A stretch of 63,855 nt of DNA, the filler included, from Atractiella rhizophila (lineage: Eukaryota): assembly GCA_021432655.1 (NCBI GenBank). It is 3 parts of 3 records of this genome, joined end to end, with 100 filler letters (N's around TTAATTAATTAA, not from the genome) between each part and the next. Parts side by side here need not be neighbours in the genome. Positions count along the whole stretch, not along the records: positions 23,155 to 46,145 come from MU271806.1; 2 more parts are not named here. The stretch is one strand, 5' to 3'. Under the pieces are notes generated by a model. The model had not been told where the DNA came from, searched no databases, and saw nothing but the letters and a program-made list of their open reading frames with translations. Below are positions 29,409 to 59,955 of this stretch, piece by piece (the stretch's first letter is position 1; each line of letters opens with the position of its first letter). The translations under genes were made by a program, and so were the position numbers.

Positions 29409-30104
29409 CGCTCTCTTTTCAAGGTCGGAACTAATAGCAGGGGGTCGCTTCGAAGAGACATACTTGATGAGAAGAGAATTGGGAGACTTTAGCTGCATTA
29501 CCATAATTTTTGGCATTCTTATTCAAGTTGTTCGCATGCATTGTCTTTCAATCCATTAGTCCTTCAGTTTGGGGTGTTGCTGCACTAAGTTCAACAAGTA
29601 GAGATAGGTTAATCATGATTATTTAGCTGGCACGTTTCTTTGAGTGTTAAAGCGACGGTGACTCAAACCCATTCGACTCTCAGAGTCTAGCGACTTAAGC
29701 GTGGTAACCTTGCCCAGACCAAAAATGCGCCGTGCCTACCAAATTGGCTCCTCTTGCTCCTGTCCTCGCTCCCAGTCTCAGATTTACTCTGTCCCGGATG
29801 CCGATATCTCGAGCTATCCAAGTGAAGATAACCATTAATCGTAACGCGTAATGCACTCACTCTCTCCTTCGCCCCTTCGCCGTTGGCGGCTTCAAGTAGC
29901 GAGCCGACCAGTGCCGTCCCCTCACCAAAGCATGCCACATCGGCGGTTGAGCTAAAATCGGATGGACTCCACTCTAGCTCAGGCGAAGAGGTGGGAGATC
30001 GATTGATGCGCACGGCAGCGACCATCGTCTTTATATTCCGCACCCTCTACCTTCGTCCCATCTATCTACTACCTACCAACATCATTGAACGGTGACAATT
30101 CGGC

Positions 30105-31758
30105 ATGACAACTTCCTTGAAGGAGCCTCTCAAGTACTCGGGTTCTCTCGATCACCTGGAGTTTTTGAGGTTACTCCCGTCATTGGTTAGCCCTATTGTC
30201 GCATCGGAATTGATTAACATTGATTTTTTGCCCGGCTTGGCAGGGAGAGAGTATCCAAAGACCCAGATCAAAGATATCCTCAACGCCCCTAATGCGGAAC
30301 AGATGATCCGAGACCTCGCAATCATCAGTATGTTTCTCTCCCAAAGCGTTCGCAGGTGCTGACACTCCCGTCAACAGTCAGTCAGCGAGGAGTTGTTTTT
30401 TTCCGTACCCAGGAATTAGACATTGCCTCGCAGGTATGCGCTTCCTCAAGTGCTTCAGCAAACCCATCTTCATGTTTCTTCAGAAAAGGTTCACCAATCT
30501 TCTCGGGAAGCTGGGAGGGCGACCTGCCGATCACGACCTTCACAAGCACCCTCTATTCTACTCACCCCTGAACTCTGCCGTGCGTATCTTGTGTTCAGAG
30601 GCAACTCCAACTAAGCTTGGTGTAGATGGACGAAAAGGGCGGAACGGACCCGGAAATCTACGTTATCTCGAGTGAGACGCAGGCTAAGCTGTACCCGAAA
30701 GAAGACATGAAACGGACGTATAACGATGCTGCTGAACAAGTGTGTCTTCCTCTTCTCGTTGAATTACATTCTGACACAAACACAGTGGCACTCCGATTGC
30801 CTTTTCGAAACGTGCCCGGCGGAGTCCGTTTTCTGATTCTTGATTTTTTTCATACTCAATGCGGTTTTAGCTACTCCTGCCTCAAGCTTCATGAAACCCC
30901 TAAGACTGGAGGAGATACAATGTGGGCGTCTGCTTACGAAGTGTGCGTCCGCTCCCAAATCGCTAGAACCTTTAGATTTAGTATGCTTGCTTGAAGGTAC
31001 GATCGCATGTCCCCCCCATGGCAAAAGTTCATGGAGAGTCTGGAATGTGTGTGCGCGCAGCCTATCTTCAAGAAGACTGGTGCGTCGCTCTTCTTTTTCT
31101 CACACTGCAAACCCAAAAGGTTTATACAAAGCGGAACGGTCTAACTGCCCCATTATGGAGCCTCGCGGATCTCCACTCAACGTAGGAGACACTTTCGCAC
31201 CGGTCCATCCCATGGTGCGATCGAATCCTGTATGCGTTTCCTAACTTTCAGCTTGTTTTTTTCAATCAGAAGAATAGGTAACTGGATGGAAAGCGATCGT
31301 TGGTTTTGGGCTCCATTTTACCGAAATCAAGGACGTTTCGCCGTATGAGAATCAGATGATCAAAGACTACGTCATGAGACTGGTGACGCGGAACCACGAC
31401 CTCCAAGTTCGCCTTTGCTGATTCAGGAATCGAAGCTGATAAAAGAGCAACAGGCAAGGATCAAGTGGACACCGAACGATGTCGCCATCTGGGACAACCG
31501 AAGCGTTTTTCAGTACGCCTCGTCCCTGCCTTCTCTCCCAAAATCTGAAAGATGCTGTTTCCAGTTCTGCAACCCCCGACCTCATGCTGGCCGGAGGAAG
31601 GAGAACAGGCAATAGGGCCAGCTCAGTTGGCGAGAAACCGTATCTGGACCAGAATGTGGGTCTCATTCTCATTGTCGTGTCTTGGGTCCCGTCAACTGAC
31701 GCGTAATCAGGCTAAATCAAGGAGGGAAGCTTTGAGGGAAGGGGCAGAAAAGAAATAA
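30105..31758 (+). CDS. TauD/TfdA alpha-ketoglutarate-dependent dioxygenase, many introns
   Basis: Motifs QRGVVFFRTQEL, WHSD (HxD), GGDTMWASAYE, HPMVRSNP and WTPNDVAIWDNRSVFH (the His codon is split by an intron). Confidence 0.92.
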
Positions 31759-33679
31759 AGTGTCACAGCAATCACCTGTTGACGTCGAGGACACGGTGAA
31801 CATGGATTATAAGCATTCGAGGGACTAGATGTAAGAATTTGAAAGCTTGGTAAATGACAAATGCTAAATACATCCCTCACACTCGCGACTTTGACATCTT
31901 CCAATGAGTACTCATAGGAAGCACAGTCCTTGCCTGTAACTCCAATGGCGATAACTCCTGAGCGCTTAAACTGACCAATTGGTCAAATAAGACATGTAAG
32001 TGGGAAAGAAAATGGGAACCCAATAGAATGATCTTTATCATGCTGAGGATCCATATCACTTTATGCAACAGGATGATTATGCATTATGCATCCTGCGTCA
32101 ACTAGGCAAAGGGACTTTACCGTTCACGAGTAGCTTCGTTTCAACACCTCATCACCACTAAGCAATTGCAACCCAGGGATCCATCCCTCATAATCCGCTA
32201 ACTTGCGCGTCTTCTAAATGAAAGGGAGAAACAACTACACATTGTCGCCCTCAAAAAGGTCTCCAAGCGCTCCAATGATGTCTTCGGTATGGGACCAATG
32301 GGAGCCAGACGTCCATTTGCGTTGAAGGACGAAGTGAGGAAGCAAAACCTTGAAGTCGGGCACACTTGCGCTCACCATCATTTTGAAAGTATCTCCAGGC
32401 CCTCTTGTCTTTCACCTTTCAAAATCTCCTTCGGTGGCATTCCCGTCAGTGCAATCATCTCCGCAACGGTTTGAGCGTTCGAAAAGTTCCCTTCCCTGTC
32501 CTTGGCGCCAAACAAAGTGACGGTCATAAACAGCTATGCAAAATAGCCAGCCAAAGCTCCAGATGTCGGGTAACTCCAAGGCAAACAACTCCAAGGTCTC
32601 GAAAGAGATTAGGCATGATGTCGTCCTTCCATGGCCCGAGATCGCCAAATCGTGTGTGGCCGAAGTCGCATAATATGTGGAAATGGATTGTGTGGGGAGG
32701 TGCGATAAAGGGGTAGATTATGCAATCCACGAGAATCCTGCGAGGGATAGGAGATCGGACCTCTCGTTCTTCAGTCTTCGTCAACACGGAAAGATCCTTC
32801 ATCGTGAAGAGTATGCTCTTCGGTTCCCACATCTGGATCTGAATTAGCTTTGATACGAGTCGAGGGAGATCTAGACCTGTATGTATAAGTTGACCTTAGA
32901 AATGCAAGAAATCAAGTCCTATCAGAGATTAGGGTTAGCGTCCTAAGATCAGCATGGGTAGTTTACTTTCTTTTTCAATGCTTCTTCTTACCGCAGGACC
33001 TGCACAATCAATACTTTCGACGTAGTTCCAAAACCTAGTTTGGAAACGATTTGATTTAAGACTCGGTGAATCTGTGCTGGATAGTATTGAGCAGGATAAT
33101 AGGATGGTAGCGTTTCCTCATCAAGACGGTGGAGTCTGGAATCACTTGGAGGTCAGATATGGAAACACTCGGGGAGGTATCATTACCTGGTCCGCGTCGA
33201 GGAGTCGCATCAAGGGGAAACCTGGGGAGAATTGTCGCACGGCAATCACTAGAACTTGCTAACGCTAAAAAAGGTGGACACGAGATACATGGAATAGAGC
33301 AAGCCCCAAGTGGTGCTGCTAGCATGACACAGGACGTTACTTCGAAGCGCACACAAGTTCTCGCAAGAAGCGATTCTCTTTATACATGAGCTGTTCTCCA
33401 ATACCTCTTCGATCGTGGTGGCGTGGTCTCAGGCTTCATCGATGCTTCATCTGTAACGGTGACAGTATTCAAACTTGCAGCATTGCGCTCAGCAGTGCCA
33501 AAGTAACGCTCGAGTCTACGTATCTAATCCTGATTCTAATCATAGCCCAGCTTAGCCGACATGATGAAAATTGGTGACGCTGGAAGATAATCTGACGTCA
33601 CCTCTTTCGCGAATATATAAAGGTTGAGCAAAGGTAGGTAACAAGCCAATAACAACCAAGCAAATAAGCATAAAGCAAC

Positions 33680-34285
33680 ATGTCTTCCAACGCAACCACC
33701 AACACTAGCTCTACATCGCCTGCTTATGCGACGAACGCTCCTGCTCATGGGAGGAACGCAGGAAATACTTTTGGAGAGAAAGTTCGGTGCGTCCCGTTCT
33801 CATGGGTACAGGACTGGCATGACTGAGGGAATACGATGCAGAGACGGGTTTAACGTCGCTGGTGGAACAGGAGACGCGATTCGTGGCACCTTCAACTCGT
33901 ACGTGTGCTCACCGTCCCCTTCCTGTGCTGAACAATGGAGAAAAGGGCGATGGACTCGCTTGGAGATGCCATCACTGGACGTGATGGTCACGCGAAGCAT
34001 CAAGTCTCTGAAACTCACAATGAAGGCATTGCCAACCGCGGTCGGTTGCTTTGCTCCTTCTCACTTCCAATCTGCTCACCCCGCGGAATAGGGATGAATG
34101 ACGTCCGCCAAGGCATGGATCACCTTCGAGGACGACCAGAAACGACGGCTGAACACCAGACGGGGGGAAGTCTGCCTCCTAACAACGTCAACTTGCAGCC
34201 TCAGTATAATAATCCCACGACGGCAGCTGCTGACGCGAGTGGAGAGACGGCTGGAGCAGGGGAGTCGAAGCGAGGATTCGTGTGA
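33680..34285 (+). CDS. Small hydrophilic fungal protein (stress/hydrophilin-like), spliced
   Basis: TATA at about 33614, ATG 33680, exons joined give GFNVAGGTGDAIRGTFNSAMDSLG. Confidence 0.5.
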
Positions 34286-34542
34286 GCGTCGTGTTGAAGG
34301 GCGCGATGTAATTATTGTACTTTGTCGATAAAGCAGAAATGTGAATACTGTACTGCATCACATCACTCACAGGCAGCAGCAGGTTGCTGGATGAATGCCA
34401 AAATACGGCTCCCGAAAGTACGCACGGGAACTCCGCGGCGCTGTGTCTCTCACCGCCTACATTCACGCTCGCCTTCTCTCCTCCAGCGACCAGCTCCTCC
34501 AACGTCTCCCACCGCACCACTCCTTCTCTTCCCTCGTCCAAC

Positions 34543-36021
34543 ATGCCGCTCAACTACACACACTCCTCCGGTGGAGGCTCTTCAAATGCGCCGAGCTATG
34601 AAATGGAGGGCAGGAATAGCATGGGTGGAGGGAGCATGGACGACTATTTCGGCGAGGTATGTTCTGCCCTTTCAGTCTACAAGTTTCGGAGGGTCTGGGA
34701 AACCATTTCTGCATTCGTTCCGGTTGCAGAAGAAGGACTGAGGGCGAAAGAGTGACATGTTGTCCCACTTCACTTCACCTGCTTAGACGTTGCACCGCAA
34801 GAAGTTGCCACAGCTCTTTCTCATTCACTCAAGTAATTGTGTCCAAGCGGGAGACCTGTTGAAGTACTCGAAACAAGCACATCGCTATGCAGAATGAGGT
34901 TACTCTGGTATAAGTAGAGAAAACGGTGTTCACTGCTCTCCGTTGAATATCACGATGGTATTTTCTAGCCGTAGCTGCCTCTTCCTGCACATGTCTCATG
35001 ACATCTTTAACTACGTGTTCTCTCTTTACTCAGGTCAACTATTCGGTGCTCCTCTGACTGTTTGCCGTTATACAGATTAGTGCCATCCAAGATGCCATCC
35101 GCACGTTCAACGATCAAGTTCAAAACATTTCCGACCTACACAACCGTCAGCTCACTGCATTGGACGCTGACCCGAACAGCACCGCCTCCACTGTATCCTC
35201 TGACCTTGCCACTGCGAGTTCCTCCATATCGACGCTGTCGAACTCGATCAAGCAACGCATCAAAACCCTTGAGCGACAAACCGTCCGTTTGCCAGCCACG
35301 AACCCGGACAAGAGCGTGCGCCAGAACCAGGAGGGAGCGTTGAAAAAGAGGTTCATGGAGACCATCGAGTCGTACCAAGGAGTGGAAAAGGCGTATCGAG
35401 ATAGGCTTAGGATGCGACTCGAGAGGCAGTATAGGATCGTGAAACCTGATGCGACCGAGGATGAGGTGCGGAATGCGGTTGATGGTGACGCGGGCGAGGG
35501 AGGGGTCTTCGCTCAAGCTGTGCGCCGTCGTTTTTACCTACTCAACCCTGTGGTTTAACTAATTGAGTCTTATAGTTGCTTGGATCGAGAACTACGGATG
35601 CTCGACGCGCCTTGTCTGCGGCCCAAGACCGACAAAAGGACATCAAGAAGATTGAGCAGACGCTCGTGGAGCTCGCTCAACTTTTTAACGAAGTAAGTCA
35701 CTGTCTCTGTCTCTCTTCCGCAGACGCAGCTGAGGACGGATTTAGATGTCTATCATGGTTGAGCAAGACGATGAAAAGATTGTGAGCATTGATGAACGAC
35801 AGGCGCTTGTTGGTGAGGAGCTTGGAATGACGTAGGTTTCTCCTTCCTCTGTCCATGGGTTCAGACGCTTATCTGTCTGTTGGCTTAGCATCAAGGAGCT
35901 AAAACAGGCGAATGTCTCGGCCAGAAATTACCGCAGGGGTCGATGGATTTGTTTCTTCATCTCCGTTGGAGTTCTTGTTGTTGTCGGTATCATTCTTGCC
36001 ATTGTCTTCGGGAGGAAGTGA
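34543..36021 (+). CDS. Plasma-membrane syntaxin (Sso1/2-like t-SNARE)
   Basis: Habc region ending RQYRIVKPDATEDEV...VFAQA, SNARE motif DIKKIEQTLVELAQLFNE, and C-terminal RWICFFI transmembrane anchor. Confidence 0.92.
34760..34994 (+). ncRNA. Candidate intronic H/ACA-type snoRNA
   Basis: Inside the unusually long syntaxin intron 1: hairpin (ACTTCA/TGAAGT, CCTGCTT/AAGCGGG), AAACAA H box at 34871, second hairpin (TGCAG..GAGG/CCTC..CTGC), then ACA at 34989. Confidence 0.35.
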
Positions 36022-39000
36022 AATCTCCATTTCTTCCCTCAAGGACAATGTTTGGTGTAGGCTATTCACGCTCGAGTTATGCATTCTATTCTTTGGTCGG
36101 GAATACGGTTGCCTTGAACAAGTTACACTGGCCGCCTATCTGACATCTGACATCTGCCGCCTGCCGCAGCTTGCCATGGGGCCGCTCATGCCGTGTGTTT
36201 GTCGATACATAGGCACTTCCAATCGTTCGGTGGCAGAGCGCTGTCACACGCAAGACCTCTTCAACTTGAAATTCCTTCGCTTAGTTCTTCTCGACGTCTC
36301 GAAGTCTCTAAGTCGTCAGAGCCTTGCAGAGAGATCCGGTCTGGCGCCCGCATCACCACGATTGCCAGCAGAAAAGAACATCAGCTAGGCAAAAGGGAAA
36401 AGGTTAGCTGACTAATCCTCACTCGCCGTTTATCGATCCTGGCCTACCGTATTGACGTCGTAACCCTGAGTTGCTAAACCAGCTTCGTCCTCTTGAAAAG
36501 GTCTGCTGACTAGTATTCTGCTGGGCCGATGGTGTAACCCGAACATCGAGCAGACCTGACCTGAGGGTGCTTTTCGAACCACGGCATTCTAAGGTATTCG
36601 AATTCAGCATGTTCGATCGGATCCCCAGTCGCCAATCGGCCATATGGATCGATCAGAAACGATGGACAAGAGTCAGGAGTACTATTATTGCGAGCATCAT
36701 CGGCATGCTCGTCTGGCGTCGTGCGTTCAGCGCAAACATCGACTTCCGCTAAGCCAGACTAATTTTTGCCAACGCATGCATGAAATGCACACGAAGTGAC
36801 ACAATAATCACGAAAAAGGACGCAGCGCAAAGAGATCCATGACGAGAGAAGAATCAGAAACGAGACGCCTGCGGAATAGACGTTGCGCCTAGACGATGAA
36901 ATCTACGATAGGTAGACGGTAGACGCAGCTGAGGGCAACGGCCGGGTGAAAAGCTCGTTTATCGAGTAACTGACACCACTCAGCGTATGTAACGAGCTCT
37001 GCATGAGTGGTGCGCAACGTGGGACAGTTATTGATCAGATGCTTGCTACGTAGTGTGTAAGCCTAACCCTCATAAAGAGTAAATAGAGCGGGGGCGTATA
37101 GATTGTCTACCGGTTTTTTTTCAAAACTGAACTAAGATTTGTATGAGCAATCGCCTATGAGCCGATTCCTTCTTTAATTCGACGTAAACGTGTTGAACAG
37201 GAGAAGGATCTTACCAATCCATTGTAATTGACCTCCTAAAAAATCTAGAACACAGATGAGATGGTCGGATAAAAGCATGCAAAACACCTGAACGCACTAT
37301 TTCGATCGACCTCTTTCGTCGCGGAAGGCAAACACTCCTTTCCTCTAAAGTCGACCTCTACGAATTCGGGACTAGTATCATTCCGGGGCTGAAGGTTACA
37401 GGATCTTTCCAATGTTCTTTCCCAAGGTCAGGTTGAATTTGGGGTTCCTCCACTGTCCGGATTTCAATTCTTCGTCTTCAAAATAAAGGACGATGCTTTT
37501 CTCCTGTGGTTTAATCTGAAGGGTTTATGAGCGGCTAGGTCATATCCAGTTGAGGATGATGCATATCGTTGTTTAGGGGTTAGGAAGCGTGCCGGTACTG
37601 ACAGTTGACGTGGGTGGAGGTGTCGGATGGAGAATAAGGTGCGATAGAACCATGGGGTTAGATTGTGAGTTTACAAAAAAAGATGAGAAAGTAACAAACT
37701 GTTTCCATCATGTACCGTCGTATGCTCCATTTGCGAATCCGCTGAGCGGCTTTCATGTCCTGTGGGTCGTCAGTGATAGAAACTTGACCTTTCAGCAAAG
37801 CATTATTCCTGTGTTAGGACTGGGAGCGGCGTCGACAGTATGTAGAATATAAATTAGATGGCTTTGCGAGGGAGACACTGATATACAACAGACATACCGG
37901 CAATCGCAGCTTGTAAGGAAGGTTGATCCATCACGAATTGTTGATGAGGGGACATGAGGGGATATGATATAAAGCAAGCCCATGATCTGCTGCCGCAATA
38001 CCTTCGAGTAAGGTTTCTATCATATGTTCCAGAGAGGTGAAAGACTCACCCACATCAGAGCCATTCACTTTAGAAATAGCATAGGTTGAGTTGAACTCTT
38101 GTGGGTGGTTGGCCGTGGTTAGATCAATACTGCTCGCGAAAGGATAATAATTTGAGATGACGAGTGTGGCGGCTGGGTGGAATGTCGGGTTAGCGGATGG
38201 CATAAACGCGAAGTCTGGGGCTAGATTCACGGCGACTTCTTGCTGAAAGTGAAGATTTCCCGATGAGTTCAAAGACGCCTCAGGGGAATGAAGTGAAAGG
38301 TGGGATCCGTGGACGCTAGCTCTCGGAGGGATACGGGTGGCTGCGAATCGTAGCGGGTGCGGAGTGGTATGTTACTTGTCCTTGAGAGGTTGATTCGAAA
38401 CTTGGTGAGGAGGAAACCATCCGTGCGAGCGGTACCGTGAATCGGAGACTGTAGCGAACGGAGAATGACGCGCCGAATAGTTATCCATAGCAGCAGGCGC
38501 GGAGTGGTATGGCATACGAAACGGAAACGTCCCAGCGAGTTGTCTTTGAGGGTAAAAATGCCCCAGCTAGTTAGAGACTTGGTGCGAAGGAAGAGGGTTA
38601 TGCATTCCGCATGGATGGTGCTCGAAGGTGGAGATCCCAGCTGGCAGAGTGGAATTCGTTCAAAGGTTGGACGTCGAAGGGGATCTGAAATGAGATGGCA
38701 GGCGGAATGGAGCCAGAGCAACGTGTTGTGGAGGGCGAAAATCGCATGATGGATCGAAGGAGGCTGGAGAAAGGAGGCTGGAACAGAGGGTAAGATGAGG
38801 ACTCTGAGCGCCGTATGCTTGTAACTGAGGTTGGATTCATCGAAAGGGGTCGAGCATGTGATTGGGTACGTTGAGACCTTCAGTGGATAGCGCGAAATCA
38901 GCCAAGTACAAGTATATGATATGAAAAGGATGGCAAACAAGAACAGAAGTGAAATGCGTCGGGGGGAATGGTCTCGTTTATCCGCACTGAGGAACTGGTT

Positions 39001-40318
39001 CTGCGGTTGAGTGACGGAGTGATTGGCGGCGGGCATCTGCAAAGAAGATTTGGAGTTTCGTTGTGTCGTCGGGGCGATTGCGAATGCGATGACTATGTCG
39101 ATGTTGGGAGGTTGAAGCTGGAGTTTTGGAGGTGGATGTGGCCCCGACTGGGCGAGGGAGTTGTAGGCTTTGACGAGGAAGGATCTTGAGCGATGCACTC
39201 TCCATGCCCAACATCGTCTGTTTCGCAATGACTGACCGATATGGATATTCCACGGTTACTAGTAAGATGGGAGAAATGAAGGAGACAGGCTTAAATAGGA
39301 TGGCAACATTCCCAACAGCCAGCCTTCCACTCTTTTGGGAGGGTCTGTGAGATAAAGTGTTCATGGAATTTCGACTAAATCATGGAGCAATAAAAAAGAT
39401 AGTTAGGATTGCATAAGTCGTCAGATAATTCAGAAAGCTAAGCATAACGTAAAGAGTGACGCCTCGATATTGAAGAGAGGATTTAATAAATTCACCCTTG
39501 TTCCCTTCACTTTCATGAACTTTGGGCAACGCATGTTCAGGATGTGGGACAAACAGTGATCAATCTGTTCTAGAATCATGGCAATCGACCACCATCACTC
39601 TCCTCCACAAGCTTCTTGCAGCTTCAGATAAATCAGATATTCGGCTGTTAAGCGATTGGGTTTTGGCTCAAGTTGAAGTTGCGATTGGTTCGCAGGATCA
39701 ACAAAATTGGACACAGTCCTTGTGGGTATCAAATCTCTAAACTGGTCTTATCGACGGTTGAGGTTGACGAAGGCTAAACGTTGACATTGTTGTAGCCACA
39801 TAAATTATAAAAATTTTGAGGAGTGGAAGAAATGACTTCACTTCCTCCTGTTCAAATTACGATCTTTCCGTTTTCAAGTTCGCCAGAGTTACTTCATAGA
39901 CCCTTTTCCGTCCTTAGGAGAGCAGTTCGTCACTGCGTCAGAACCGGAAGATATGTGGCGCGATATCGTTGATTTTGCCAGTCTCTGTTCTTGTGATTCA
40001 CAATCACTTGCCCTCAACTTCATCCTCTCATCGATCTCTTCTTCTATGCATTCGTACGTACAGATGTTTTGGATCATATTCGTCCTGGATTGGTCCTCTT
40101 GAAACGTCACGGTAGAACTTGGGGAGGCGTCTCTGATGTCTTGTCCTTTCGCCAGTATCAATCCGCACGCTTCCAGAACAGATTTACATGTTTTCTTGCT
40201 TTCTCCCAGCATCCAGAGTGCAGTCATCTGACTTGTATTTTTAGTGTTGTCTCGCTCTCAACGCAGTGCTAGTCTAATTATCATCGATGCCATCTATCAT
40301 CCGATACTTGTCAAGACG

Positions 40319-43300
40319 ATGGATACCTCTACCAACGATCGAGATCATGAAGCTCCCCAAACGCGTCCCAAGAGAAAGGCAGATGACCCAGGGTTCACGC
40401 CAAACAAACGAGTCCTTGACTTTAAGCAAACCATGGATGTGGACGACGTCAGCCCAATCTGCACTAAATCGCAGGAGGTTCCCACTCCATCAGCCTATCC
40501 ATCCACTGGCTCCTCCGACGCTCAAACTCTCAAAACGTTCAAAGTCCCCGAGAATGTTAAGAAGACGAACGACCAAGGTATCCGAATCCTCGCTATTGAC
40601 AACGGCGGCATCTGTACCTTTTCCACGCTTTACATGCTCGAAGTCGTCATGCTCCAAGTTGGAGGCCTCCTTCAAGTTCCGGAGGGCGAAGACATCCGGC
40701 CGTGCGATGTTTTCGATCTCATCTGCGGCACTTCCACGGGCGGGTGGATCGCTCTCATGCTCGGACGGCTGGGGATGACCGTTCGAGAATGCATCCGTGC
40801 ATATGAGCAGATCGTACAGCGCGTCTTCTCCGAAGAAGCTCCAATCTCGAAGGAAGGCTGCGTGTACTCTGCAGAGAGGCTCAAAGCCGCCTTCCTCGAC
40901 ATCATTGATCGATATGCTTCATCATCTGTGCCATCGTCCCATCTTCCTATGAAAGATGATAACATCGGAGATCGATGCAGAACTTTCGTCGTCTCAAGAT
41001 ACGAATCAGACGCCGTCTGTTCGACAGAGATGCGCACGTACGACGTCCGCCACGCAGCTCGCTTTGCCGCTCAATGTAATGTGTGGGAGGCGGCAAGAGC
41101 AACTTCCTCTGATCCTGACTTCTTCCTTCCTATGGTCATCGACAAAACGAAATATGTCGCCATGGGAAACAATAACCCAGCAGCCTTAGCGATTGACGAG
41201 TCAAAGAGGATTTGGGGAGAAAGAAGCCAACTCGCATGTCTCGTATCTTTGGGCTCAGGGCTTGCGCAGGCTGTCTCATTGGGTCATACGTTGGCTCAGA
41301 TTGAGCGGGCTGTGAGGGCCATCGTCAAGGATTGCTCCGGCGTGGCGAATCAGGTAAAAATGATGATGCAAGAACAACGCCTGGGAAATCGCTACCACCG
41401 CTTGTCAGTCCAAACGATGGGAGGCATCAAGTGGGAGGAGTGGGAGCGAACGGAGGACATTGTGGGCCGTACGAAGGCTTATATGGAAGAAATGTGTTAC
41501 GAAGCGCGTAATGCTGCTGAATATCTCGTGCAGGGTATATTCTCTTACCTCTTGCATACCTACTGTGTTGATGTTCTTGTAGTATGGAGTGATCGGGTTG
41601 CAGTTCGCCGACGGTTGCCATTACCGCCTGCAGGCTCCTGTTTTGGCCGCAAAGATGAGGTCCAACATGCTAGAGAAGCTATACTTAATGGCTGCCACGT
41701 TGCAATTGTGGGTGGAGCTGGAAACGGCAAATCCACTGTTGCACTCGACACCGTGCACTTCGAAGAGATCAGGCAGTCATTCACAGATCTGACACAGGGC
41801 ACTGGAGAAGATCTCCGCTTCTGGGTTCACTGCGACAATTTTGACACCTTTGCCAGGCTCTCTGACCACATCTGCAACGACATCTTTGCACTGACTAAGT
41901 CTGACAAAACATCGCTAGAGGTCGTGGCAGATTACTTCAGAAGTCGAAAATGCCTTCTCGTTTTGGATAACTTTGAGACCCCCATGCGTGCCGACGAAAA
42001 CAAAAAACAACACTTCTTCCGAACCCTGCTCTCGAACAACTCAGTTGGGTCGGTGCTCGTCGTGGCCCATCGTGGGGATAAAGTGGAATCGTTGAGCGTG
42101 AAAGGGTTAGGGAAAGAGCCTGTGAAGTTCACCATGATCTCAGTTGGTGGTCTGCCGAAAGACGGCGCGCTCGCACTCTTCGAGGAGTCATATGGAAGCG
42201 ACGAGCAGTCCTCGCTACTGGTGGTCCAACAGCTATTTCATCAGCTAGACTTCCATGCTCTATCCATCAAGCTGTTCGCTCTTCGTGCACATGAGGATTC
42301 AACTATGACACTGGAAGAATTGGTAGAGGAGTGGAAGGAGAAAAAGACACTTGTTTTCTGGAATGAAGACAGCGAAGACACCATCACGCTCAAAACGTCT
42401 ATATCGTTCTCCCTCCATTCTCCCGCTCTCAAGAAGCAGGGGGAGCGTGCTGTCTTTGCACTCGCACTACTGTCTTGGGTGCCAGACGGTCTAGCCTACC
42501 ATGACCTGTCAGCACTCGTTTCCAGGTTTTATGAATCTCAGGATATCTTCAAAGTCATTGCTGTGATTTCAAAGGTTGGACTTGCCGATAACATCAAAGG
42601 TACTCTCCGTATGCTTGCTCCTATTCGTGAATACCTCAACAAACTTGTCTCTGGCTCCAAATCACCATTTTCGATGACCGTGGCTTGGTCACTCCTACCT
42701 CTTGGAAACCATCTCATGCAGAAAGCTGAGTCAAATATTCAACAGTTTGAGATCCATCAGGATCAACACACACTGTTTCAATTCCGTGAACAATACCCAA
42801 ACCTTGAACATGTCTTGCGAAGAAGCTTATTACACCTGTCAAACCCTTTACCCATGCTGCAGCATTTGGAGAGGACATCGGAGTTTGTACGCCTGAAACA
42901 TCGGCTCTCAACTTCGCTGTTGCAACAGGCGACCCATGCCGTGAACACCGGGTTGAGAATGCCCCTGTATCCAGGTCGCAGAGAGTCTGAATGGTTAAGA
43001 CTAAGGTGTTCGGTGACAAAGTCCCTTGGCAATTGTTTTTACAACTGTGGCAAGAACGAGGATGCTCTGAAGGCGTTACAAGAAGCAAAGGTGCTCTACA
43101 TGGAAGTGGGAGATCAACAGGGTCAAGCCAACTGCGTCCGGAACATCGGGGAGATTGATTTTCGATGTGGGCGGAACGCTGACGCTCTGAAGGCGTACGA
43201 GGAGGCAAAGGAGCTCTACATAGAAGTGGGAGATCGACTGGGTCAAGCCAACTGCGTTTTCAACATCGGGAGGATTGATTTTCGATGTGGGCGGAACAAT

Positions 43301-46145
43301 GACGCTCTGAAGGCGTATGAGGAGGCAAAGGAGCTCTACATAGAAGTGGGAGATCGACTGGGTCTAGCCCACTGCATCTTCTACATCGGGGAGATCGATT
43401 TTCTATGTGGGCGGAACGATGACACTCTGAAGGCGTATGAGGAGGCAAAGGAGCTCTACATAGAAGTGGGAGATCGACATTTGGGGAGAAAGAAGCCAAC
43501 TCGCATGTCTCGTATCTTTGGGCTCAGGGCTTGCGCAGGCTGTCTCATTGGGTCATACGTTGGCTCAGATTGAGTGGGCTGTGAGGGCCATCGTCAAGGA
43601 TTGCTCCGGCGTGGCGAATCAGGTAAAAATGATGATGCAAGAACAACACCTGGGAAATCGCTACCACCGCTTGTCAGTCCAAACGATGGGAGGCATCAAG
43701 TGGGAGGAGTGGGAGCGAACGGAGGATGTTGTGGGCCGTACGAAGGCTTATATGGAAGAAATGTGTTACGAAGTGCGTAATGCTGCTGAATATCTCGTGC
43801 AGGGTATATTCTCTTACCTCTTGCATACGTACTGTGTTGATGTTCTTGTAGTGTGGAGTGATCGGGTTGCAGTTCGCCGACGGTTGCCATTACCGCCTGT
43901 AGGCTCCTGTTTTGGCCGCAAAGATGAGGTCCAACATGCTAGAGAAGCTATACTTAACGGCTTCCACGTTGCGATTGTGGGTGGAGCTGGAAACGGCAAA
44001 TCCACTATTACACTCGACACCGTGCACTGCGAAGAGATCAAGCAGTCATTCACAGATCTGACACAGGGCACTGGAGAAGATCTCCGCTTCTGGGTTCGCT
44101 GCGACAATTTTGACACCTTTGCCAGGCTTTCTGACCACATCTGCAACGATATCTTCGCACTGACCAAGTCTAGCAAAACATCGCTAGAGGTCGTGGCAGA
44201 TTACTTCCGAAGTCGAAAATGTCTTCTCGTTTTGGACAATTTTGAAACTCCTCTTCGTGCTGACAAGGACAACGTACAAAACTTCTTTCGAACTCTTCTT
44301 TCAGACAACTCAAAGAAGTCGGTACTTGTTGTGGCCCATCGCGGAGATCAAGTGGAACGTTTGGACGTGAAGGGGGACAAGCCCGTAAAGTTTGTCAAGG
44401 TCTCAGTTGGCGCTTTGCCAGAAAATGGTGCACTTGCACTCTTCGAAAATTCATACCATAGAGAGGACAAGTTCTCGCGACCGCTGGTCCATTGCCTTGT
44501 CAGACAGCTAGACTTCCATGCTCTGTCAATTAAGCTATTCGTTCTACGTGCTAACAAGGATTCAACCATGACCCTTGAACAACTGACAGGGAAGTGGGAG
44601 GAAAAGAAGACGGGGATTCTCTACAACAAAGGCAGCAAAGACACAATCACGCTCGAAACATCGATATCGTTCTCCCTCGACTCTCCCGCTCTCCAAGAGG
44701 AGGGAGAGCGTGGGCTCTTTGCACTTGCTCTGCTGTCATGGGTGCCTGACGGTCTATCCCATGATGATTTGTCAGCCCTTATTTCTGAGACTGGGAATAT
44801 CTACGAAGTCATTACTACAATGTCAACAATTGGGCTGGCCAATGACAATAAAGGTACTCTCCGTATGCTTGCTCCAATTCGTGAATACCTCAACGAACTT
44901 GTCTCCGGATCCAAATCACCGTTTTCGATGCCTGTGCCTTGGTCCCTCCTGCCTCTCGGGAACTATCTCATGCAGAAAGCCGAGTCAAATATTCAACAGT
45001 TTGAGAGCCACCAGGATCAACATGCACTGTTTCAATTCCGTGAACAATACCCCAACCTTGAACATGTCCTGATAAGGAGCATGTTAAGCCTGTCAAACCC
45101 TTTACCAATGCTGCAGCATTTGGAGAAGACATCAGAGTTTGTACGCCTGAAACATCGGCTCTCAACTTCGCTGTTACAACAGGCGACGCATGTCGTGAAC
45201 ACGTGGCTGGGAATGCCCCTGTATCTAGGTCGCAGAGAGACTGAATGGTTAAGACTAAGGCGTTCGCTCACAATGTCCCTCGGCGATTGTTTCTATGAAT
45301 GTGGCGAGAACAAGGATGCTCTGAAGGCGTTTCAAGAAGCAAAGGTGCTGTACATGGAAGGGGGATCTCGACTGGGCCAAGCCAACTGTGTTCGCAGTAT
45401 CGGGGATATTGATTTTCGATGTGGGCGGAATGAGGATGCTCTGAAGGCTTTCAAAGAGGCAAAGGTGCTCTACACGGAAGTGGGATCTCGACTGGGTCAA
45501 GCCAACTGTGTTCGCAGCATTGGGGATATTGATTTTCGATGTGGGCGGAATGAGGATGCTCTGAAGGCTTTCAAAGAGGCAAAGGTGCTCTACACGGAAG
45601 TGGGATCTCGACCGGGTCAAGCCAACTGTGTTCGCAGCATGGGGGATATTGATTTTCGATGTGGACGGAATGAGGATGCTCTGAAGGCTTTCAAAGAGGC
45701 AAAGGTGCTCTACACGGAAGTGGGATCTCGACTGGGTCAAGCTAAATGTGTTCGCAGGGTTAGGGTTAGGGTTAGGGTTAGGGTTAGGGTTAGGGTTAGG
45801 GTTAGGGTTAGGGTTAGGGTTAGGGTTAGGGTTAGGGTTAGGGTTAGGGTACTCTGAAGGCGTATGAGGAGGCAAAGGAGCTCTACATAGAAGTGGGAGA
45901 TCGACAGGGGCAAGCCGACTGCGTCTTCAACATCGGGGAGATCGATTTTCGATGTGGGCGGAACGATGACGCTCTGAAGGCGTATGAGGGGGCAAAGGAG
46001 CTCTACATAGAAGTGGGATCTCAACAGGGTCAAGCCGACTGCGTTTGCGACATCGGGAGGATTGATTTTCTGTGTGGGCGGAACAATGACGCTCTGAAGG
46101 CGTATGAGGAGGCAAAGGAGCTCTACATAGAAGTGGGAGATCGAC
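40319..46145 (+). CDS. NLR-like patatin - STAND P-loop NTPase - TPR protein (copy 1), interrupted by insert 43480-45906 and truncated at the contig end
   Basis: Patatin DNGGI/DLICGTSTGG/WEAARATS/LVSLGSG; Walker A GGAGNGKST, Walker B LLVLDNFE, MLAPIREY; 40-aa TPRs. Probable in-frame intron 41535-41582. Copy-1-type TPRs resume at 45851. Confidence 0.88.
43008..43479 (+). repeat. 120-nt tandem TPR-coding repeats, copy-1 type (continue at 45851-46145)
   Basis: Near-identical 120-nt units starting 43128, 43248, 43368, 45914 and 46034. Confidence 0.95.
45381..45755 (+). repeat. 120-nt tandem TPR-coding repeats, copy-2 type
   Basis: Three almost identical units at 45381, 45501 and 45621, plus the start of a fourth cut off by the telomere tract. 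Confidence 0.95.
45756..45850 (+). repeat. Perfect telomeric tract (TTAGGG)~16
   Basis: 95 nt of uninterrupted AGGGTT units, with the G-rich strand on +. Confidence 0.98.
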
Positions 46146-46245
46146 NNNNNNNNNNNNNNNNNNNNNNNNNNNNNNNNNNNNNNNNNNNNTTAATTAATTA
46201 ANNNNNNNNNNNNNNNNNNNNNNNNNNNNNNNNNNNNNNNNNNNN
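46146..46245. other. Artificial contig linker (N44-TTAATTAATTAA-N44)
   Basis: Same design as 23055-23154. Confidence 0.95.
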
Positions 46246-47576
46246 GTTGGAGATGTGTTGCCGATGACAAAACCGGCGGGCACGCAACCCGTCTCCTTCA
46301 CTTTGATGTCAAGCCAGCGAACATCTTGACTGTCTCAGTGAATTATCTGGGTTCTAAGAAACGTCGGGAGCAGAGAATGATGCGTTTGTCTGGGGCTTTA
46401 TTTATAGAAGTTTGTAGTTGTAGAAACACGCGTGACTTCATGCTGATGAGATAGCGTCACCTTTTTCACTGAATGCATCTGCGCACATTGATGAAACATG
46501 GCGCAGGCAGTTAAGAAAGGAGAGCTACTAGCACACTTGGTTGGGGATAGAAGGACGAAAGAACATCGTTACAAAGGAAACAAACTACTTCTGATTAGGC
46601 TTCAAAGTGAGAGCGATTACGAGCAAACATGAACCGAAGTCGACGGAAACAGGCTCAAAGTGTGGCGCGACGATCCGCAGTTGCGAAGTGCAGCTGGATC
46701 CTCCGAGCTCCGAGAGGTAGAATGGGGTTGCAGAAACATTCAGAGGAGGTCCGATCGAAATGACATACGTCCTTAGTTTTCATGCTCAGCTTGCGCACTT
46801 TAACATCTCCTGCCTCGAATGAACCCCATCTCACTTCGTCGTCAGTCGTTGTTAACTCCTGCTGGTCCATGAGTTGGTTACACCACACCACAACAGAAAA
46901 GAATAGTTTCTGAGTCACCGGAACATTCCGCTTCTTGGTTGTCGTGTCGTTGATGGATGTAAAGGCTAGAGCACTATTAGGGACTGTGAGACAGAAAAGG
47001 TACAGCTTACAGTAAGTCCGAAAGAATAGATAGGAGCGTCTTCTCAGGCGGCTTCACGCCTGCGTCCGGCGTCTTTTACCCATCGGGCATCGTGCACTAC
47101 GACATGGAGGAGTCCTGCAATCTTGCATCAAATAAATCATCAAGAAAGGCATTACAGCACTCCTAAACCTGGGTGTGTGGAATCATTAATTGTACACAGA
47201 GAATATTTGATATCTCCAACAAAGTCTCTGTTGTCAGTCATTTGCATTCGATGAAAGACTCGGCGACAGAAGCAATGGAGACCCAAATTGTTAGAGTCTG
47301 GTGTTGGTTGCTTCTGGTATGCAAATCCGCACCGTCAGTTGCCAATTAGATACTGTGGTTCATGGCAACATGGAATCCTCGGCGTTGTGTAGCATTCATT
47401 TTACCACACAGAAGAAGCAACGCTTCAACTTTCGATGGCATATTTGCTGCCTTTTATTCTCCTTTGTAATAGTTGAACAAGCGATGCCGCACTACCATTC
47501 TTGATTACCGTCCTCAATTCCCTTTATGAACAAGTTGGGATTGTCGGCTCCTTCCCTCCATGAAGGACACTCAACT

Positions 47577-47716
47577 CAAAACAAATAATCCGCACTTCCC
47601 TTTATCACTCGAAGAAGGACTCGGTTCCCTTCAATGTTCAAAGGGACAAAACAAATAATCCGCACTTCCCTTTATCACTCGAAGAAGGACTCGGTTCCCT
47701 TCAATGTTCAAAGGGA
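47577..47716. repeat. Perfect 70-bp tandem duplication
   Basis: 47577-47646 is identical to 47647-47716. Confidence 0.95.
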
Positions 47717-47835
47717 GTGAGTGGGGTTGAACAAGGACCGAGTTGTTCGCCTTTTCTTTATGGCGCGCAAAGAGGTATAAAAGCCTCGATGTGAAACTGG
47801 GATCCCACGACACTTGCTACTTAACATTAATACAA

Positions 47836-48754
47836 ATGTCGCAAGCGCTACATCGACGAGCTCTTACCATGAAGATTGATGTGAAGGGTATCTTTACTGA
47901 GAACGGCCGACCGGAAGATAATCCTGGATCCGCACCATTCAAGGTTTTCTCAAAGTTCTTCAAAAATATTGAAGACATTAACCCACACACGTGGCATAAA
48001 GCTATTGCCAAACTGCCCTATGTGATGAAATGTGATGAATACCACGTCATCCAACAAGGGATGACCGTCGACATCAGTGCGTTTTTCTTCCCTTTTCTTT
48101 CATCAATGTTGACTATTGCATCCCCACTTGTAGAACCGGTTGGTGGAGACTATACATTGGATGAGCTGCAGAAAATATGTGCGCTGTACTTTATATGCGA
48201 GGGTAAGGATCCATCCTATGGTCAGAACACTCTTCATGTCGTTCTTAGGCGTGATCGATCAAATACGAGCCAATTATCCGAAAGAGGACGTACTATACAG
48301 GATTAATGACGATACTGTGTCCTTCTCCGACTCAGAATTGTCGGCTAAAGTGGGGCAGATTCTGACAGCTGCAACCGCATCTGAACTGGCCAGCCTCATC
48401 TGTCGACCTCAACAAAAGCGTAGATACTCCCGAGTGAACATTCTTCTTTCATCAAACGACACCATGGGGACAATCCAATTCTACCAGTACCATGGGACCT
48501 GGGATGCTAAGGAGGCTTATGATTGGTACCTATTCGCTCAAACTGTTGTGAGGCAGTCGCTTGAAATTTCACCTGATAGGATTAGGCAGTATGCTCTTAG
48601 CAGAAGGGAGGCCATTGCGTATGTTCTCAGATTGCTAGCAAATTCATTGGAGGAGGCGGAGCAGAAAGCTGTTGTGCAACAATTGGGAGATCAGGCTGCG
48701 GAGGCTAATGATATCTGTGGCAATGACAGCTGCTGGCGGGTTGGGACTGCTTGA
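47836..48754 (+). CDS. Divergent putative amidoligase (Amidoligase_2-like) protein, spliced
   Basis: TATAAA at about 47777. C-terminal RYSRVN...GTIQFYQYHGTWD....W..F resembles the RYxxxN..TIEFRQHxGTxD motif. Introns at about 48078-48133 and 48203-48249. Confidence 0.5.
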
Positions 48755-49998
48755 AGCTTTTCTGGAACCGGTTTCTTAAACAGGAAGAGTAGTGGGCAGG
48801 TATATTGATGAAGAGACTCATGTCATGCATTATACTATACTTCGCTTCCATATCGAGAAATAGTACAAGTGCACCGACTTCAGACATTGTTAATTGATTA
48901 CCCACCCTAGCCGGCAGGGGATGAAGATGGAGCTTCTCGAGTATGACTATTTCAATGCCCTCCTTTGCACACACAATTTCCAGAGCATCTCACTGTAAAG
49001 TTTCTCTGGTCACCCCCAATACCAGGAACGATGTGAATATGCCTCAAATTTCTCTTCCCAAGACGGCTCAGCGTTGTCTGCAAGTGATGCGCGATAGATG
49101 CATCGTAACCACGTCGAAACCTCCCTAATAAACCTAGCTCGATCATTTGAAGGCTTAGGGGAAGATGAGGCAGCATATCTATCGAAAATGTCAATCTTTT
49201 GCAGCGAAACTTCAAGACTTTTTAGACCACCAATGAGGTCATCCCAAGATGGTTGAGTAGGCCATAAATAACTCAATCCGAAGTCACGAAATTTTCCTGC
49301 AACCTCAACTTCACCAACAAACCAAGATGACCACTCCATTCTGCGAAGGTAAGATGAAAGCGGACTAGCGTGTGTCATGTTGCAATTAAGATTTCCCAAA
49401 GGATGGGAGGGATGTCGACGAGCAACCAAGCGCGACGTTCAAGAGTAGCCATAGGAACTAGAACGACGCGATCCTTGGGAATGCCGACGCTGGACAGCGT
49501 GAGCGTCCAAAACTTCGTCGAGAGACACGCAATTAAGATTTCTGACTGTTTATCCCCGTATAGAAAATGTGGAAAGAGTAGTAAGAGCTTCCGCATCAGC
49601 AAGAAGGCATATCTTTATCTGTAGAAGTCGGATATTTGGACAGTTGGAAAGCAGGGACAGCCAGTCTGAAAGCAATGTCGTTCTCTTGCTTATCAGCGTT
49701 GCTCCTATTACGAATTTCGCACGCTCTGGGCGACGGGAAAAGCTGCAGGAAGAGCCTTGAGATTAGTCACCTTGAAGATAGCTCCCTTTTCAAAGCGTAT
49801 GAGTAGGGTTTCGTAGAGTTGAGGCTCAGATAATGGAGACCATATCTTGCAGGTCAAAGCGACAGCCAAGACATCCTTCTTTTTGAGGCATCCAAAAATT
49901 TCTAAGAATATTTCATGAGGGACTCGTGGCAGTGGACGCGCATCTGATTCCCCAACCGTGTTGCTGCACGACGTGCCGGTTAAGGTAAGGGTTTGCAT
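48705..49998 (-). pseudogene. F-box/LRR-like gene with frameshifts
   Basis: F-box LPRVPHEIFLEIFGCL...VALTCKIWS..SEPQLYE. The coding-like continuation (SRRPERAKFV..CPNIRLLQI) is in another frame after about 49755 and shifts again later. 3' end approximate. Confidence 0.6.
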
Positions 49999-50256
49999 GG
50001 TTGTAATTGTGATGGCTGGGTAGAGATGCGGGCTCGAAGCGATGGATGGCGATAAGTTCTTAGTCATCTTTGTCTCCTTTGACCCTTATCATCAAAGCAA
50101 ATGCCCGAAGCTAGCTGCTCAGGTGGCTGTCCAACAAGTTGATTCCACGAACCAAACACACCGCCAGGTGATAATACAATTGAGACATTGATACACTTCC
50201 AACCTATTGTACCTTTAATTTTTATTCTCAGCATTCATATAAGCAATCGCATCCTC

Positions 50257-51765
50257 CTAAATCGTCCCGACCTCCACCTCAACCCAATTCTCATACACCT
50301 CTCCCTTCTTCAAGATGCTATCTCCACCGTTCTTCTCTCTGAGGCTATCAAACTCCTTTCCAGGCAAACAAGCGCCAATGACTCCCTGAAACTCGAGGAA
50401 CGTCGCTTGGAACTTCTCGTATCCTCCTTTCCCATCGGTAGAAGAAGAATGTGAAGCTCGACGTGTACCATCGCCGTTAAAGAATTTGGCGGTGTAGCAT
50501 TGAACCGCTGGTTGGTTCGACGTGAAAGTGAGCACTGGTCGTGGGGTGGAGGAAGAAGGGCCGACGAGGATGAGCTTTGGCGACGTCGAGCTCGGATTGG
50601 CGAATACGAGACAGTGATCTAATGGATGCATAAGTCAACGACCTCATATGTCTGCTATGCTCGAAATGGTAAGGAAAGACGTGACGCACCAACTCCATTC
50701 TCCTCGTCCCACACGTCCCCAAATTTCCTAATCGCCTTCAAATCTTCCGGCCCACCTTGGTTGAAATCAAAGATGGTGCCCTTCACGTCTCCCAGTTCTC
50801 CAGTTGGAAGAGCATCGGAGGAGTTGACGACAACCACTTTGTCGCATTCAGCCCACATAGCATAATCTTTGGCGGTGTGGTCGCCTCCGAAATTGAATCC
50901 CCAATGCACCTGAAAATCGTAACGGGTCAGTGACGACATCGATGGAAGGTGAGGACGCGTACGGTCAAGTTCACTGGTGTGGCCGGCGCGTCGCCTTCCA
51001 GAGCTGCTTTTATAACATACTTGAACTATTCCATACCGATCATAAATAAGTTAGTCAAAGAAGAAGACAAAACAGGACGTGCCTTGTTACCGTCTAGGGT
51101 CAAAAGCACCTGGAGGAGCAAATCGCCAGGGAATCCATTGTCTCCATCAGGAGATTGGAGCTGAAAGAGCAACGCATTTTCTTTCGGGACAGAGGGGAAG
51201 AGCGAAGTGGACTCTAGCGGAAGCGCTGTCCAAGTGCGTTGGTCGAGAGAGGATTGTCCGCCATGCAAGCAGACAGACGGAGGTTCTGTGTTGGAATTTG
51301 ATAGAAAGCAAAGTTAGTGGATGCCTTGTCGGCTAAATTCGAGGAGAGGAGGCATGTCGGTGTTTTGAGAGAGGGGGCTCCGCTAGTCCTCCTCCAGCCA
51401 AACAGACGAGGAAGGAGAGGATGAGGAGGCAACGTACCCACTACGTCGAGATTGAGCTTTGTGCTTCCATCACATGCGGTCCATTCGCCTGCAGGAAGTC
51501 TTCCAACGCGATCTATTAGTCCTTGTCTCAACAGAGCAGCATGAACAGACCGATTAGCATAACGTCCCACAGTCTGATTTCTGAATCTTCGAACTTGCGC
51601 ATGCTCCTCTGGCTTTTGTGGCCCAATGAGGAGCTCTGTTTCGTTGCCATTTTGTCTGAGTTGGAAGGAATAGAAGGTGAGTCCGAAGGGGAGGACGGAG
51701 AAGGAGAGCGAGGAAGAAGACAGAGAAACGGGATTGAAGGATGTGTCGTTAATCTGTGGTGCCAT
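50257..51765 (-). CDS. Aldose 1-epimerase (galactose mutarotase), spliced
   Basis: Motifs TVGRYANR, MHGG, DGDNGFPG, VNLT.HWGFN, LDHC, QCYT and FLEFQ. Confidence 0.92.
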
Positions 51766-52357
51766 GGTGCGCTTCTATCTCTTTCGCTTGACAGTACTGG
51801 GCATTCGAGTGTTCAAGTCGAGTTGGGAGTTGGGAGATACCTGTCACGATCTGATCAACTTTATCTCGCGTTTTTTCCGTCCGCTCAATTGTGTGGTGTT
51901 ATTTGTCCTTCTGTCACACTGTGTGAATCTTTGAAGTCCCCATCACAAGACAGGACGCTGTATGCACCAGCAGGATGGCAGAAGGGAGAAGTAGATCATC
52001 ATACCAGCCATATCTCTAATGACAGTTAATATGTGAGCTAACGTATCAAGTTGTCTTGTCCGTTCTTTAGAGGTGGGATCGCGCTTGTCTCTCAACAACT
52101 CTGCCTGTTTCCTTTTCTATTCTCCCAGAATTCTACGCGGTTCTCGCTCTACGCCTCTGGGGTTGACGCTCAACTTCGGAAATGGTTGCATCGATTTCAC
52201 ACTCATCGAAATCTGAGTTGGGACCAATTCTAATTACGTCACCACATCCCATTTAAGAGGAGCTGGCTGGCTTGAAGACCCTGCTCTCCAATCCGTCAAC
52301 TACCTTCACTTACTTCCTACTACGCCATAAAAGGGCAAATTTAACAAAAGCGACGAA

Positions 52358-59930: not shown

Positions 59931-59955
59931 NNNNNNNNNNNNNNNNNNNNNNNNN
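59931..59955. other. 25-N gap
   Basis: Run of N directly after the reversed block. Confidence 0.99.

What the first reader, a model, noticed from the sequence alone, without database searches (positions are those of the whole stretch)
43424..45906. Telomere-capped NLR paralog nested in the TPR array of its sister gene, flanked by a 56-bp direct repeat
Seen: copy-1 TPR sequence stops at 43479. A 2.37-kb paralog fragment follows and ends in about 16 perfect TTAGGG units. Then 43424-43479 is repeated exactly at 45851-45906, and deleting the insert plus one repeat copy restores an in-frame TPR array (DRQGQADC). Inference: this is either (a) a real capture of a broken, telomerase-healed subtelomeric NLR end into a paralog, a possible route to receptor diversification, or (b) a mis-join of a true chromosome end into a repeat-rich gap. 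Because TPR units are near-identical, the flanking duplication is weak evidence on its own, although it carries the ACTCTG variant specific to the interrupted unit.
Basis: partly seen in the sequence, partly recalled or inferred. Interest (0 to 1): 0.8.

Follow-up and report, generated by a model that had tools for sequence, protein, structure and literature searches.

The report
Chromosome tip mis-scaffolded inside NLR gene
The apparent telomere-capped gene copy sitting inside its sister gene is most likely an assembly error in which a real chromosome tip, ending in a broken immune-receptor-like gene, was written into the middle of a near-identical copy.

Summary
The letters are as described, but the nesting is very probably not one molecule. 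The tract is exactly 95 nt, as are 27 of the 30 long TTAGGG tracts in this assembly (21 of 23 at contig ends; none longer): the K-1 limit of a K=96 de Bruijn graph. The insert starts 95(+1) identical bases before its first difference from copy 1, as a graph fork would. Both junctions are a single A, as at most other such joins here; the same A-insert-A layout with a 95-bp flanking repeat and no telomere occurs on C140. The contig ends 295 nt later at the same TPR phase. The 56-bp repeat is the unmerged overlap of two copy-1 contigs. What is real: copy 2 is a chromosome tip healed inside a TPR unit (2-nt AG seed; the same join appears in a public run's contigs), and three more copies of this patatin-NACHT-TPR family in the assembly, plus one in run contigs, end in telomeres. 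No read-level test of either junction was possible. The scan noted a one-base telomere join and a healed gene tip elsewhere in this genome before.

The parts
40319..43478 (+). Copy 1: patatin-NACHT-TPR NLR-type gene, from the first ATG to the end of the left contig (3.5 TPR units of 120 nt at 43054-43478)
   Evidence: (Patatin aa 122-321 E 2e-11; NACHT aa 490-652; TPR_12)
41535..41582 (+). 48-nt in-frame GT-AG intron of copy 1; the insert keeps its counterpart at 43804-43851
   Evidence: spliced joint in run X3 (table 5), sequence
43424..43479 (+). Left copy of the 56-bp repeat: end of the left contig (inferred overlap with the tail contig)
43479..43479 (.). Single A at the left junction, inferred one-base spacer between contigs
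   Evidence: A at most comparable joins
43480..43574 (+). 95 nt identical to 41211-41305, up to the first difference between the copies: inferred K=96 graph fork
   Evidence: maximal exact match 96 with the junction A; first difference 41306/43575
43480..45755 (+). Copy 2 fragment (end of patatin, NACHT, 3.7 TPR units); mosaic: 96-99% like copy 1 for 600 nt, then closest to the C953 copy (89-94%), then to C67/C381 copies
45756..45850 (+). Telomere tract, 95 nt, starting on a 2-nt AG seed of the TPR unit; length set by the assembler; read in frame as (RV)n without a stop
   Evidence: TTAGGG loose end at the same TPR phase in run X2
45851..45851 (.). Single A at the right junction, inferred one-base spacer
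45852..46145 (+). 294-nt tail contig: continuation of the copy-1 TPR array (94% to copy 1, 79-80% to copy 2), beginning and ending with the same 54-nt repeat
46146..46245 (.). N44-TTAATTAATTAA-N44 linker; G000 contig C627 (window 23155-46145) ends here
30000..36299 (+). Upstream block with a syntaxin gene (35058-35558); a 92-97% identical version lies on C705, which ends in a telomere about 0.4 kb further on, same polarity

Best explanation
A chromosome-end block exists in at least two near-identical versions (haplotypes or sister chromosome ends). They fork inside the patatin-NACHT-TPR gene. In one version (copy 1) the TPR array runs on; in the other (copy 2) the chromosome broke in the fourth TPR unit and telomerase added TTAGGG on a 2-nt AG seed. 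A K=96 short-read assembler collapsed the shared 5' part, produced the copy-2 branch as a contig that starts K-1 bases before the first difference and stops K-1 bases into the telomere, and the scaffolder wrote it between two copy-1 contigs that overlap by about 55 nt, with one filler base at each join. Shown: the lengths, boundaries, genome-wide tract lengths and parallel cases. Inferred: the assembler and its K, the filler base, telomerase as the agent, and whether copy 2 is an allele or a paralog.
For: 27 of 30 tracts of 15 or more units are exactly 95 nt, the others 93, 93, 92; 21 of 23 terminal and 6 of 7 internal ones are 95. ALLPATHS-LG builds unipaths at K=96 (PMC3483556, passages). 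Insert opens with 95(+1) identical bases; chance about 0.005 at the local 2.2% mismatch rate; an unrelated duplicate in the window opens with the same 96 (49793/52965). C140:81231-84793 has the same layout with a 95-bp flanking repeat, single As at both joins and no telomere. Two other internal tracts (C140, C541) abut a 97-98% second copy of their own flank. Abutting 98.6-100% tandem duplicates occur on 4 of 11 contigs picked by number (C600, C605, C300, C628). Left junction and contig end share one TPR phase. No assembled copy of 38000-41209 above 86% was listed (40 of 96 candidates scored), while runs X2 and X3 hold a 98% second version of 40200-40609 that is not the C953 copy. TPR-to-TTAGGG join at the same phase in run X2. 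C705 shows that this block lies at a chromosome end with this polarity.
Against: No raw or long reads were available; only contigs of three runs were laid, and the stretch stopped at 45750, so the right junction was not examined and no record was shown joining 43479 to 45907 (18 loose-end rows shown, 112 not). The 55-56-nt overlap is not K-1, so it needs a second step (trimmed or patched contig ends). Other tandem duplicates open with 97, 104 or 237 identical bases, not 95. Two of 17 hand-picked joins show T, not A, and several positions are ambiguous by a base and were chosen after the pattern was noticed. The assembler is inferred from the numbers, not known.
Confidence: 0.92

Rival explanations
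1. Real capture: a break in the copy-1 TPR array copied or ligated 2.3 kb of a telomere-capped paralog, telomere included, and rejoined with a 55-56-bp duplication (template switch or end joining).
For: Sequence as written; the repeat carries the unit-specific ACTCTG variant; interstitial tracts of 6-34 units and capture of sequence at failed ends are described in Pyricularia (PMC8381367, passages); the family recombines among copies.
Against: Needs four coincidences: tract length equal to that of the terminal tracts, a 95(+1)-nt exact opening, the same TPR phase as the contig end, and one-base joins like those of telomere-free duplicates. Only 1 nt of microhomology at the left join and none at the right. 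Internalised MoTeR relics in Pyricularia had no target-site duplications.
Confidence: 0.04
2. The internal tract is real but longer than 96 nt and was collapsed to 95 by merging the two flanking contigs on their repeat ends.
For: A tract longer than K cannot be sized by a K=96 graph (inference from PMC3483556).
Against: Such merging gives 95 only when both ends share the repeat phase, about 1 in 6 per locus on my model; 5 of 6 gap-free internal tracts are 95 and the sixth is 93 ((1/6)^4 = 8e-4 without this locus). It does not explain the left junction.
Confidence: 0.02
3. Retroelement-mediated insertion (an RNA running from the NLR into the telomere, reverse-transcribed into the sister gene with a target-site duplication).
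For: 5'-truncated insert, simple-repeat tail and flanking direct repeat look like such a product; earlier notes report Penelope-like elements in this genome (unchecked).
Against: The insert keeps the 48-nt intron that run X3 shows spliced; 56 bp is long for a target-site duplication (my knowledge); all assembly signatures above stay unexplained.
Confidence: 0.01
4. The TPR-to-telomere join is itself a chimera (library or assembly), so copy 2 is not a chromosome end.
For: Seen in one contig of one run, which may be the sample the window was built from; because the laid stretch ended at 45750 it was placed at the equivalent unit (45517) and could belong to a sister copy.
Against: Found by a second assembly method; 2-nt seed fits the 1-4-nt seeds in 19 of 24 de novo telomere events in Magnaporthe (PMC7367193, passages); a 95-nt perfect tract means K=96 words covered it; C705 puts a telomere on the same block.
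Confidence: 0.06

Closest known systems
False (heterotype) duplication in genome assemblies (Ko et al. 2022, PMC9516828; passages read)
   Same: A second haplotype or near-identical copy placed on the same scaffold next to or inside a gene, starting at the border of identical and divergent sequence, with faulty gap closure; that paper shows exons of one gene falsely inserted in another.
   Different: Here the misplaced piece is a chromosome tip with its telomere; read depth and read pairs, the paper's tests, were not available; allele versus paralog is open.
Terminal truncation with de novo telomere formation in Magnaporthe/Pyricularia oryzae (PMC7367193, PMC8381367; passages read)
   Same: Telomere repeats joined directly to broken gene sequence on a 1-4-nt seed; polymorphic chromosome ends.
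   Different: Here the capped sequences include several members of one NLR family; a basidiomycete root fungus; no MoTeR-like element at this join.
Interstitial telomeres / telomere relics of Pyricularia (PMC8381367)
   Same: A telomere tract written inside a chromosome near an end.
   Different: Those vary in length (6-34 units) and were seen in long reads; here every internal tract has the assembler's limit length.
PLP-1 (Neurospora crassa), HET-Z1, VIC2: patatin-NB-ARC-TPR NLRs (PMC12881547, passages)
   Same: Patatin, STAND NTPase with P-loop, TPR array of high internal identity; a SNARE (syntaxin) gene lies 5 kb upstream.
   Different: Pfam calls the NTPase NACHT/nSTAND1; the patatin Asp motif is missing in this family; no partner or cell-death role tested.

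Membership tests
True interstitial telomere / captured chromosome end | One molecule spans the tract and both flanks | tested here: inconclusive
Contigs show presence, not absence.
True interstitial telomere / captured chromosome end | Tract length independent of the assembly method | tested here: not met
   95 nt, equal to 21 of 23 terminal tracts; none of 30 longer
Insertion with target-site duplication | Flanking direct repeat not explained by contig overlap | tested here: not met
   Repeat ends at the same 54-nt repeat border as the contig end; same layout without telomere on C140
Retrocopy | Introns lost | tested here: not met
   48-nt intron kept at 43804-43851; spliced form in run X3
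False duplication by assembly | Duplicate starts at the border of identical and divergent sequence, at an assembler-set distance | tested here: met
   95(+1) nt before the first difference; second case 49793/52965
False duplication by assembly | Haploid read depth over each copy and discordant read pairs | not testable with these tools
   Only contig depths, which the tool says are no copy number
De novo telomere healing | G-rich strand joined 3' to gene sequence on a short seed | tested here: met
   AG seed shared with intact units; polarity as on C705
De novo telomere healing | Molecules end in variable-length repeats at this site | tested here: inconclusive
   One X2 contig ends in 26 loose telomere letters at this TPR phase; contigs cannot show ends
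PLP-1-type NLR | Patatin + STAND NTPase (P-loop, Walker B) + TPR | tested here: met
   (GTSTG, GGAGNGKS, LLVLDNFE)
PLP-1-type NLR | Catalytic patatin dyad (Ser and Asp) | tested here: not met
   GTSTG kept; the DGG/DAG motif of outside homologues P0009, P0018, P0019, P0060, P0098, P0021 aligns to V-A/V-L in copy 1 and four close relatives, likewise in the family loci read; a shifted Asp is not excluded
PLP-1-type NLR | Cell death on meeting an incompatible SNARE | not testable with these tools
   needs genetics

The most novel reading that the evidence does not exclude
Leaving the nesting aside: chromosome breaks in this fungus are healed inside one NLR family more often than its share of the genome predicts (this copy, C1372, C403, C1523 and, in run contigs, the C953 sister, all with the gene reading into the telomere), giving a ladder of patatin-only, patatin-NACHT and short-TPR alleles, some without a stop codon and with (RV)n or (GL)n tails. 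Telomere healing would then be a recurrent way of trimming or switching off allorecognition receptors, polymorphic between nuclei or chromosome ends. Literal nesting as first described I put at about 0.05.
Probability: 0.2. Interest if true: 0.55.

Novelty: not a real feature. Interest (0 to 1): 0.2.

Why it matters
As written the structure would have been a new route to NLR diversification; it is almost certainly a scaffolding product, and the 95-nt rule found here lets all seven long internal telomere tracts of this assembly be read as misplaced chromosome ends. The real remainder, NLR copies cut by new telomeres, is a known process (healing after terminal truncation) acting on a subtelomeric receptor family; it would matter if the enrichment holds in a long-read assembly and the cut genes are expressed.

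Tried and rejected
Laying three runs: all were contig sets; none of the 6 listed joints and none of the 18 loose-end rows shown (112 not shown) lay at 43479/43480, which proves nothing either way. Contig depths (copy-2-specific 135-145 in X1 but 8 in X2) were not used. Run X3 held only 0.21 of the words. A pattern search for the second telomere join (equivalent of 44686) found 0 matches in the assembly; the C953 copy ends 7 nt before it. A search for the onward contig of the tail found nothing closer than 89% outside C627 (40 of 81 candidates scored). My first idea of a K series 57/77/97 (note 1) was dropped when the tracts gave 95. A histogram of exact-match lengths at abrupt duplicate borders gave no clear peak (few cases). 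G000 C628 is not the window's third piece; the label 'C628:1' is window 46246-63855. Pfam on 65 of 91 ORFs beside the telomeres found no second family hit more than once. A larger sample of joins could not be fetched. Paper searches listed no paper on telomere addition inside fungal NLR genes; PMC12258605 and PMC13449251 have no hit for 'telomer' in the main text (supplements not read). This is not proof that none exists.

Full report
Observation. The coordinates are right. 43424-43479 and 45851-45906 are identical over 56 nt; the insert matches 41210-43478 at 85% overall; the telomere tract is 45756-45850, 95 nt, with 15 whole TTAGGG units. Copy 1 (40319-43478) encodes patatin, NACHT and TPR domains, copy 2 the same from the end of the patatin onward. 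The closest named proteins are labelled Atractiella rhizophila. The window is three contigs joined by N44-TTAATTAATTAA-N44 linkers; the finding lies at the very end of G000 C627 (window 23155-46145), which stops 295 nt after the tract.

The tract length is set by the assembler. A search for 15 units in a row found 30 tracts in the genome. 27 are exactly 95 nt, two 93, one 92, none longer; 21 of 23 at contig ends and 6 of 7 inside contigs are 95. Real telomeres do not share one length (my knowledge), but a de Bruijn unipath stops K-1 bases into a repeat longer than K; ALLPATHS-LG uses K=96 (PMC3483556, passages). That this or a like assembler was used is my inference. Our tract thus looks like the end of a contig. 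A real, longer internal tract merged on its repeat ends would give 95 about once in six per locus on my model; 5 of 6 gap-free internal tracts are 95 and the sixth 93 ((1/6)^4 = 8e-4 leaving this locus out).

The other end of the insert has the same mark. It begins with 96 bases identical to copy 1 (41210-41305), the first being the junction A, then the first difference: 95 plus one, where a branch of a K=96 graph would begin. At the local mismatch rate of 2.2% a run of 95 or 96 has a chance of about 0.005. An unrelated duplicate in the window opens with the same 96 (49793/52965). Against a strict rule, other duplicates open with 97, 104, 76 or 237. No assembled second copy of 38000-41209 above 86% was listed (40 of 96 candidates scored), but runs X2 and X3 hold a 98% version of 40200-40609 that differs from the C953 copy: a candidate for the collapsed 5' part of copy 2.

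The 56-bp repeat. A 54-nt stretch is shared by four TPR units (43305, 43425, 45852, 46092). The left contig ends at its end (43478), the tail begins at its start (45852) and the contig C627 ends at its end (46145). One A lies between left contig and insert, one A between tract and tail. The tail is 94% like copy-1 units and about 80% like copy 2. So the repeat is an unmerged overlap of two copy-1 contigs. Single As recur: 5 of 6 gap-free internal tracts have A on the + strand at the outer join, and 10 of 11 duplicate joins that I picked by hand; the two others are T; some positions are ambiguous by a base and were chosen after I saw the pattern, so this is supporting, not decisive. C140:81231-84793 shows the whole layout (repeat, A, 3.4-kb insert, A, repeat) with a 95-bp repeat and no telomere. 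The internal tracts on C140 and C541 abut a 97-98% second copy of their own flank. Abutting tandem duplicates of 98.6-100% occur on 4 of 11 contigs picked by number. This is the false-duplication pattern of PMC9516828 (passages).

Reads. Three runs hold the stretch, all as contigs. Laid on 40200-45750 they give perfect pieces of both copies (X1 44519-45053; X2 42789-43114; X3 41995-42629), no listed joint or loose end at 43479/43480, which proves nothing, and two loose telomere ends in X2: one at 45517, the same TPR phase as 45757, and one at 44686 on a 94% sister that matches the C953 copy, whose contig stops 7 nt short. X3 shows the 48-nt intron spliced; the insert keeps it, so it is no retrocopy. 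X1 and X2 are one sample and may be the source of the assembly, so they check the method, not the biology. The right junction was not examined.

What is real. Copy 2 is most likely a chromosome tip: the repeats start on the AG of the TPR unit, like the 1-4-nt seeds in 19 of 24 de novo events in Magnaporthe (PMC7367193, passages). C705 carries a 92-97% version of window 30000-36299 and a telomere about 0.4 kb further on, in the same polarity, so the block is subtelomeric and exists in at least three versions; allele or paralog is open. Copy 2 is a mosaic of copy-1-like, C953-like and C67/C381-like parts, as expected of a recombining family. Of the other 29 long tracts, 3 cap a close family member read toward the telomere: C1523 (about residue 139), C403 (323), C1372 (584); a fourth (C376) cuts a distant patatin NLR read away from it. 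With an assumed family footprint of 0.4 Mb, 3 of 29 has P = 0.0015; with 2 Mb, P = 0.10; the footprint is a guess, the search counts are lower bounds, and subtelomeric position alone may explain it. Frames into the repeats are RV (this copy), GL (C1372, C1523) and stop (C403), so no common design. Other telomeres cut other genes, such as an aspartyl protease on C379.

Comparison. The gene has the PLP-1 architecture (PMC12881547, passages) but lacks the patatin Asp motif, so it works like, rather than is shown to be, a PLP-1. True interstitial telomeres in Pyricularia vary from 6 to 34 units and were seen in long reads (PMC8381367, passages). Searches listed no paper on telomere addition within fungal NLR genes; supplements were not read.

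Verdict. Nesting: assembly artefact, about 0.92. Telomere cap on copy 2: real, about 0.9, a known process. Interest 0.2; the recurrent capping of this NLR family is the lead worth a long-read check.

Noticed in passing
G000 C1372:3200, C403:92-96, C1523:96-100, C953:8941 (L072, L058, L073, L132): Four more copies of the same patatin-NACHT-TPR family end in telomere repeats (C953 only in run contigs), all read toward the telomere.
   Followed up: partly
window 35058-35558: Syntaxin (t-SNARE) gene 5 kb upstream of the patatin NLR, recalling the PLP-1/SEC-9 pair; a 99% identical protein stretch lies on telomere-capped C705.
   Followed up: partly
window about 41150-41180 (P0001 residues 305-316) and family loci L001-L015: The whole family keeps GTSTG but lacks the patatin DGG Asp motif and has DNGG for DGGG: perhaps a pseudo-lipase NLR family.
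   Followed up: partly
G000 C11:26388, C140:90201, C167:81080, C280:3628, C541:14876, C591:10516: The six other long internal telomere tracts have the same 95/93-nt length and are probably misplaced chromosome ends too; C140:90200 looks like a telomere-addition site present in only one of two versions.
   Followed up: partly
window 47577-47716; 49793-49999/52965-53171; 51486-52965/59956-61429: Exact 70-bp tandem and two 98% duplicates with abrupt borders: likely the same kind of scaffolding duplicates.
   Followed up: partly
window 53172-54995: 96.7% match to G000 C200 (L115:5954-7744, opposite strand).
   Followed up: no
window 41535-41582: A 48-nt intron that keeps the frame and has no stop, so the unspliced form is also open.
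   Followed up: partly
L046, L041, L055, L060 (C11, C50, C280, C418): Four telomere-adjacent flanks share a 63-bp-period repeat; most other flanks are unrelated to each other.
   Followed up: no
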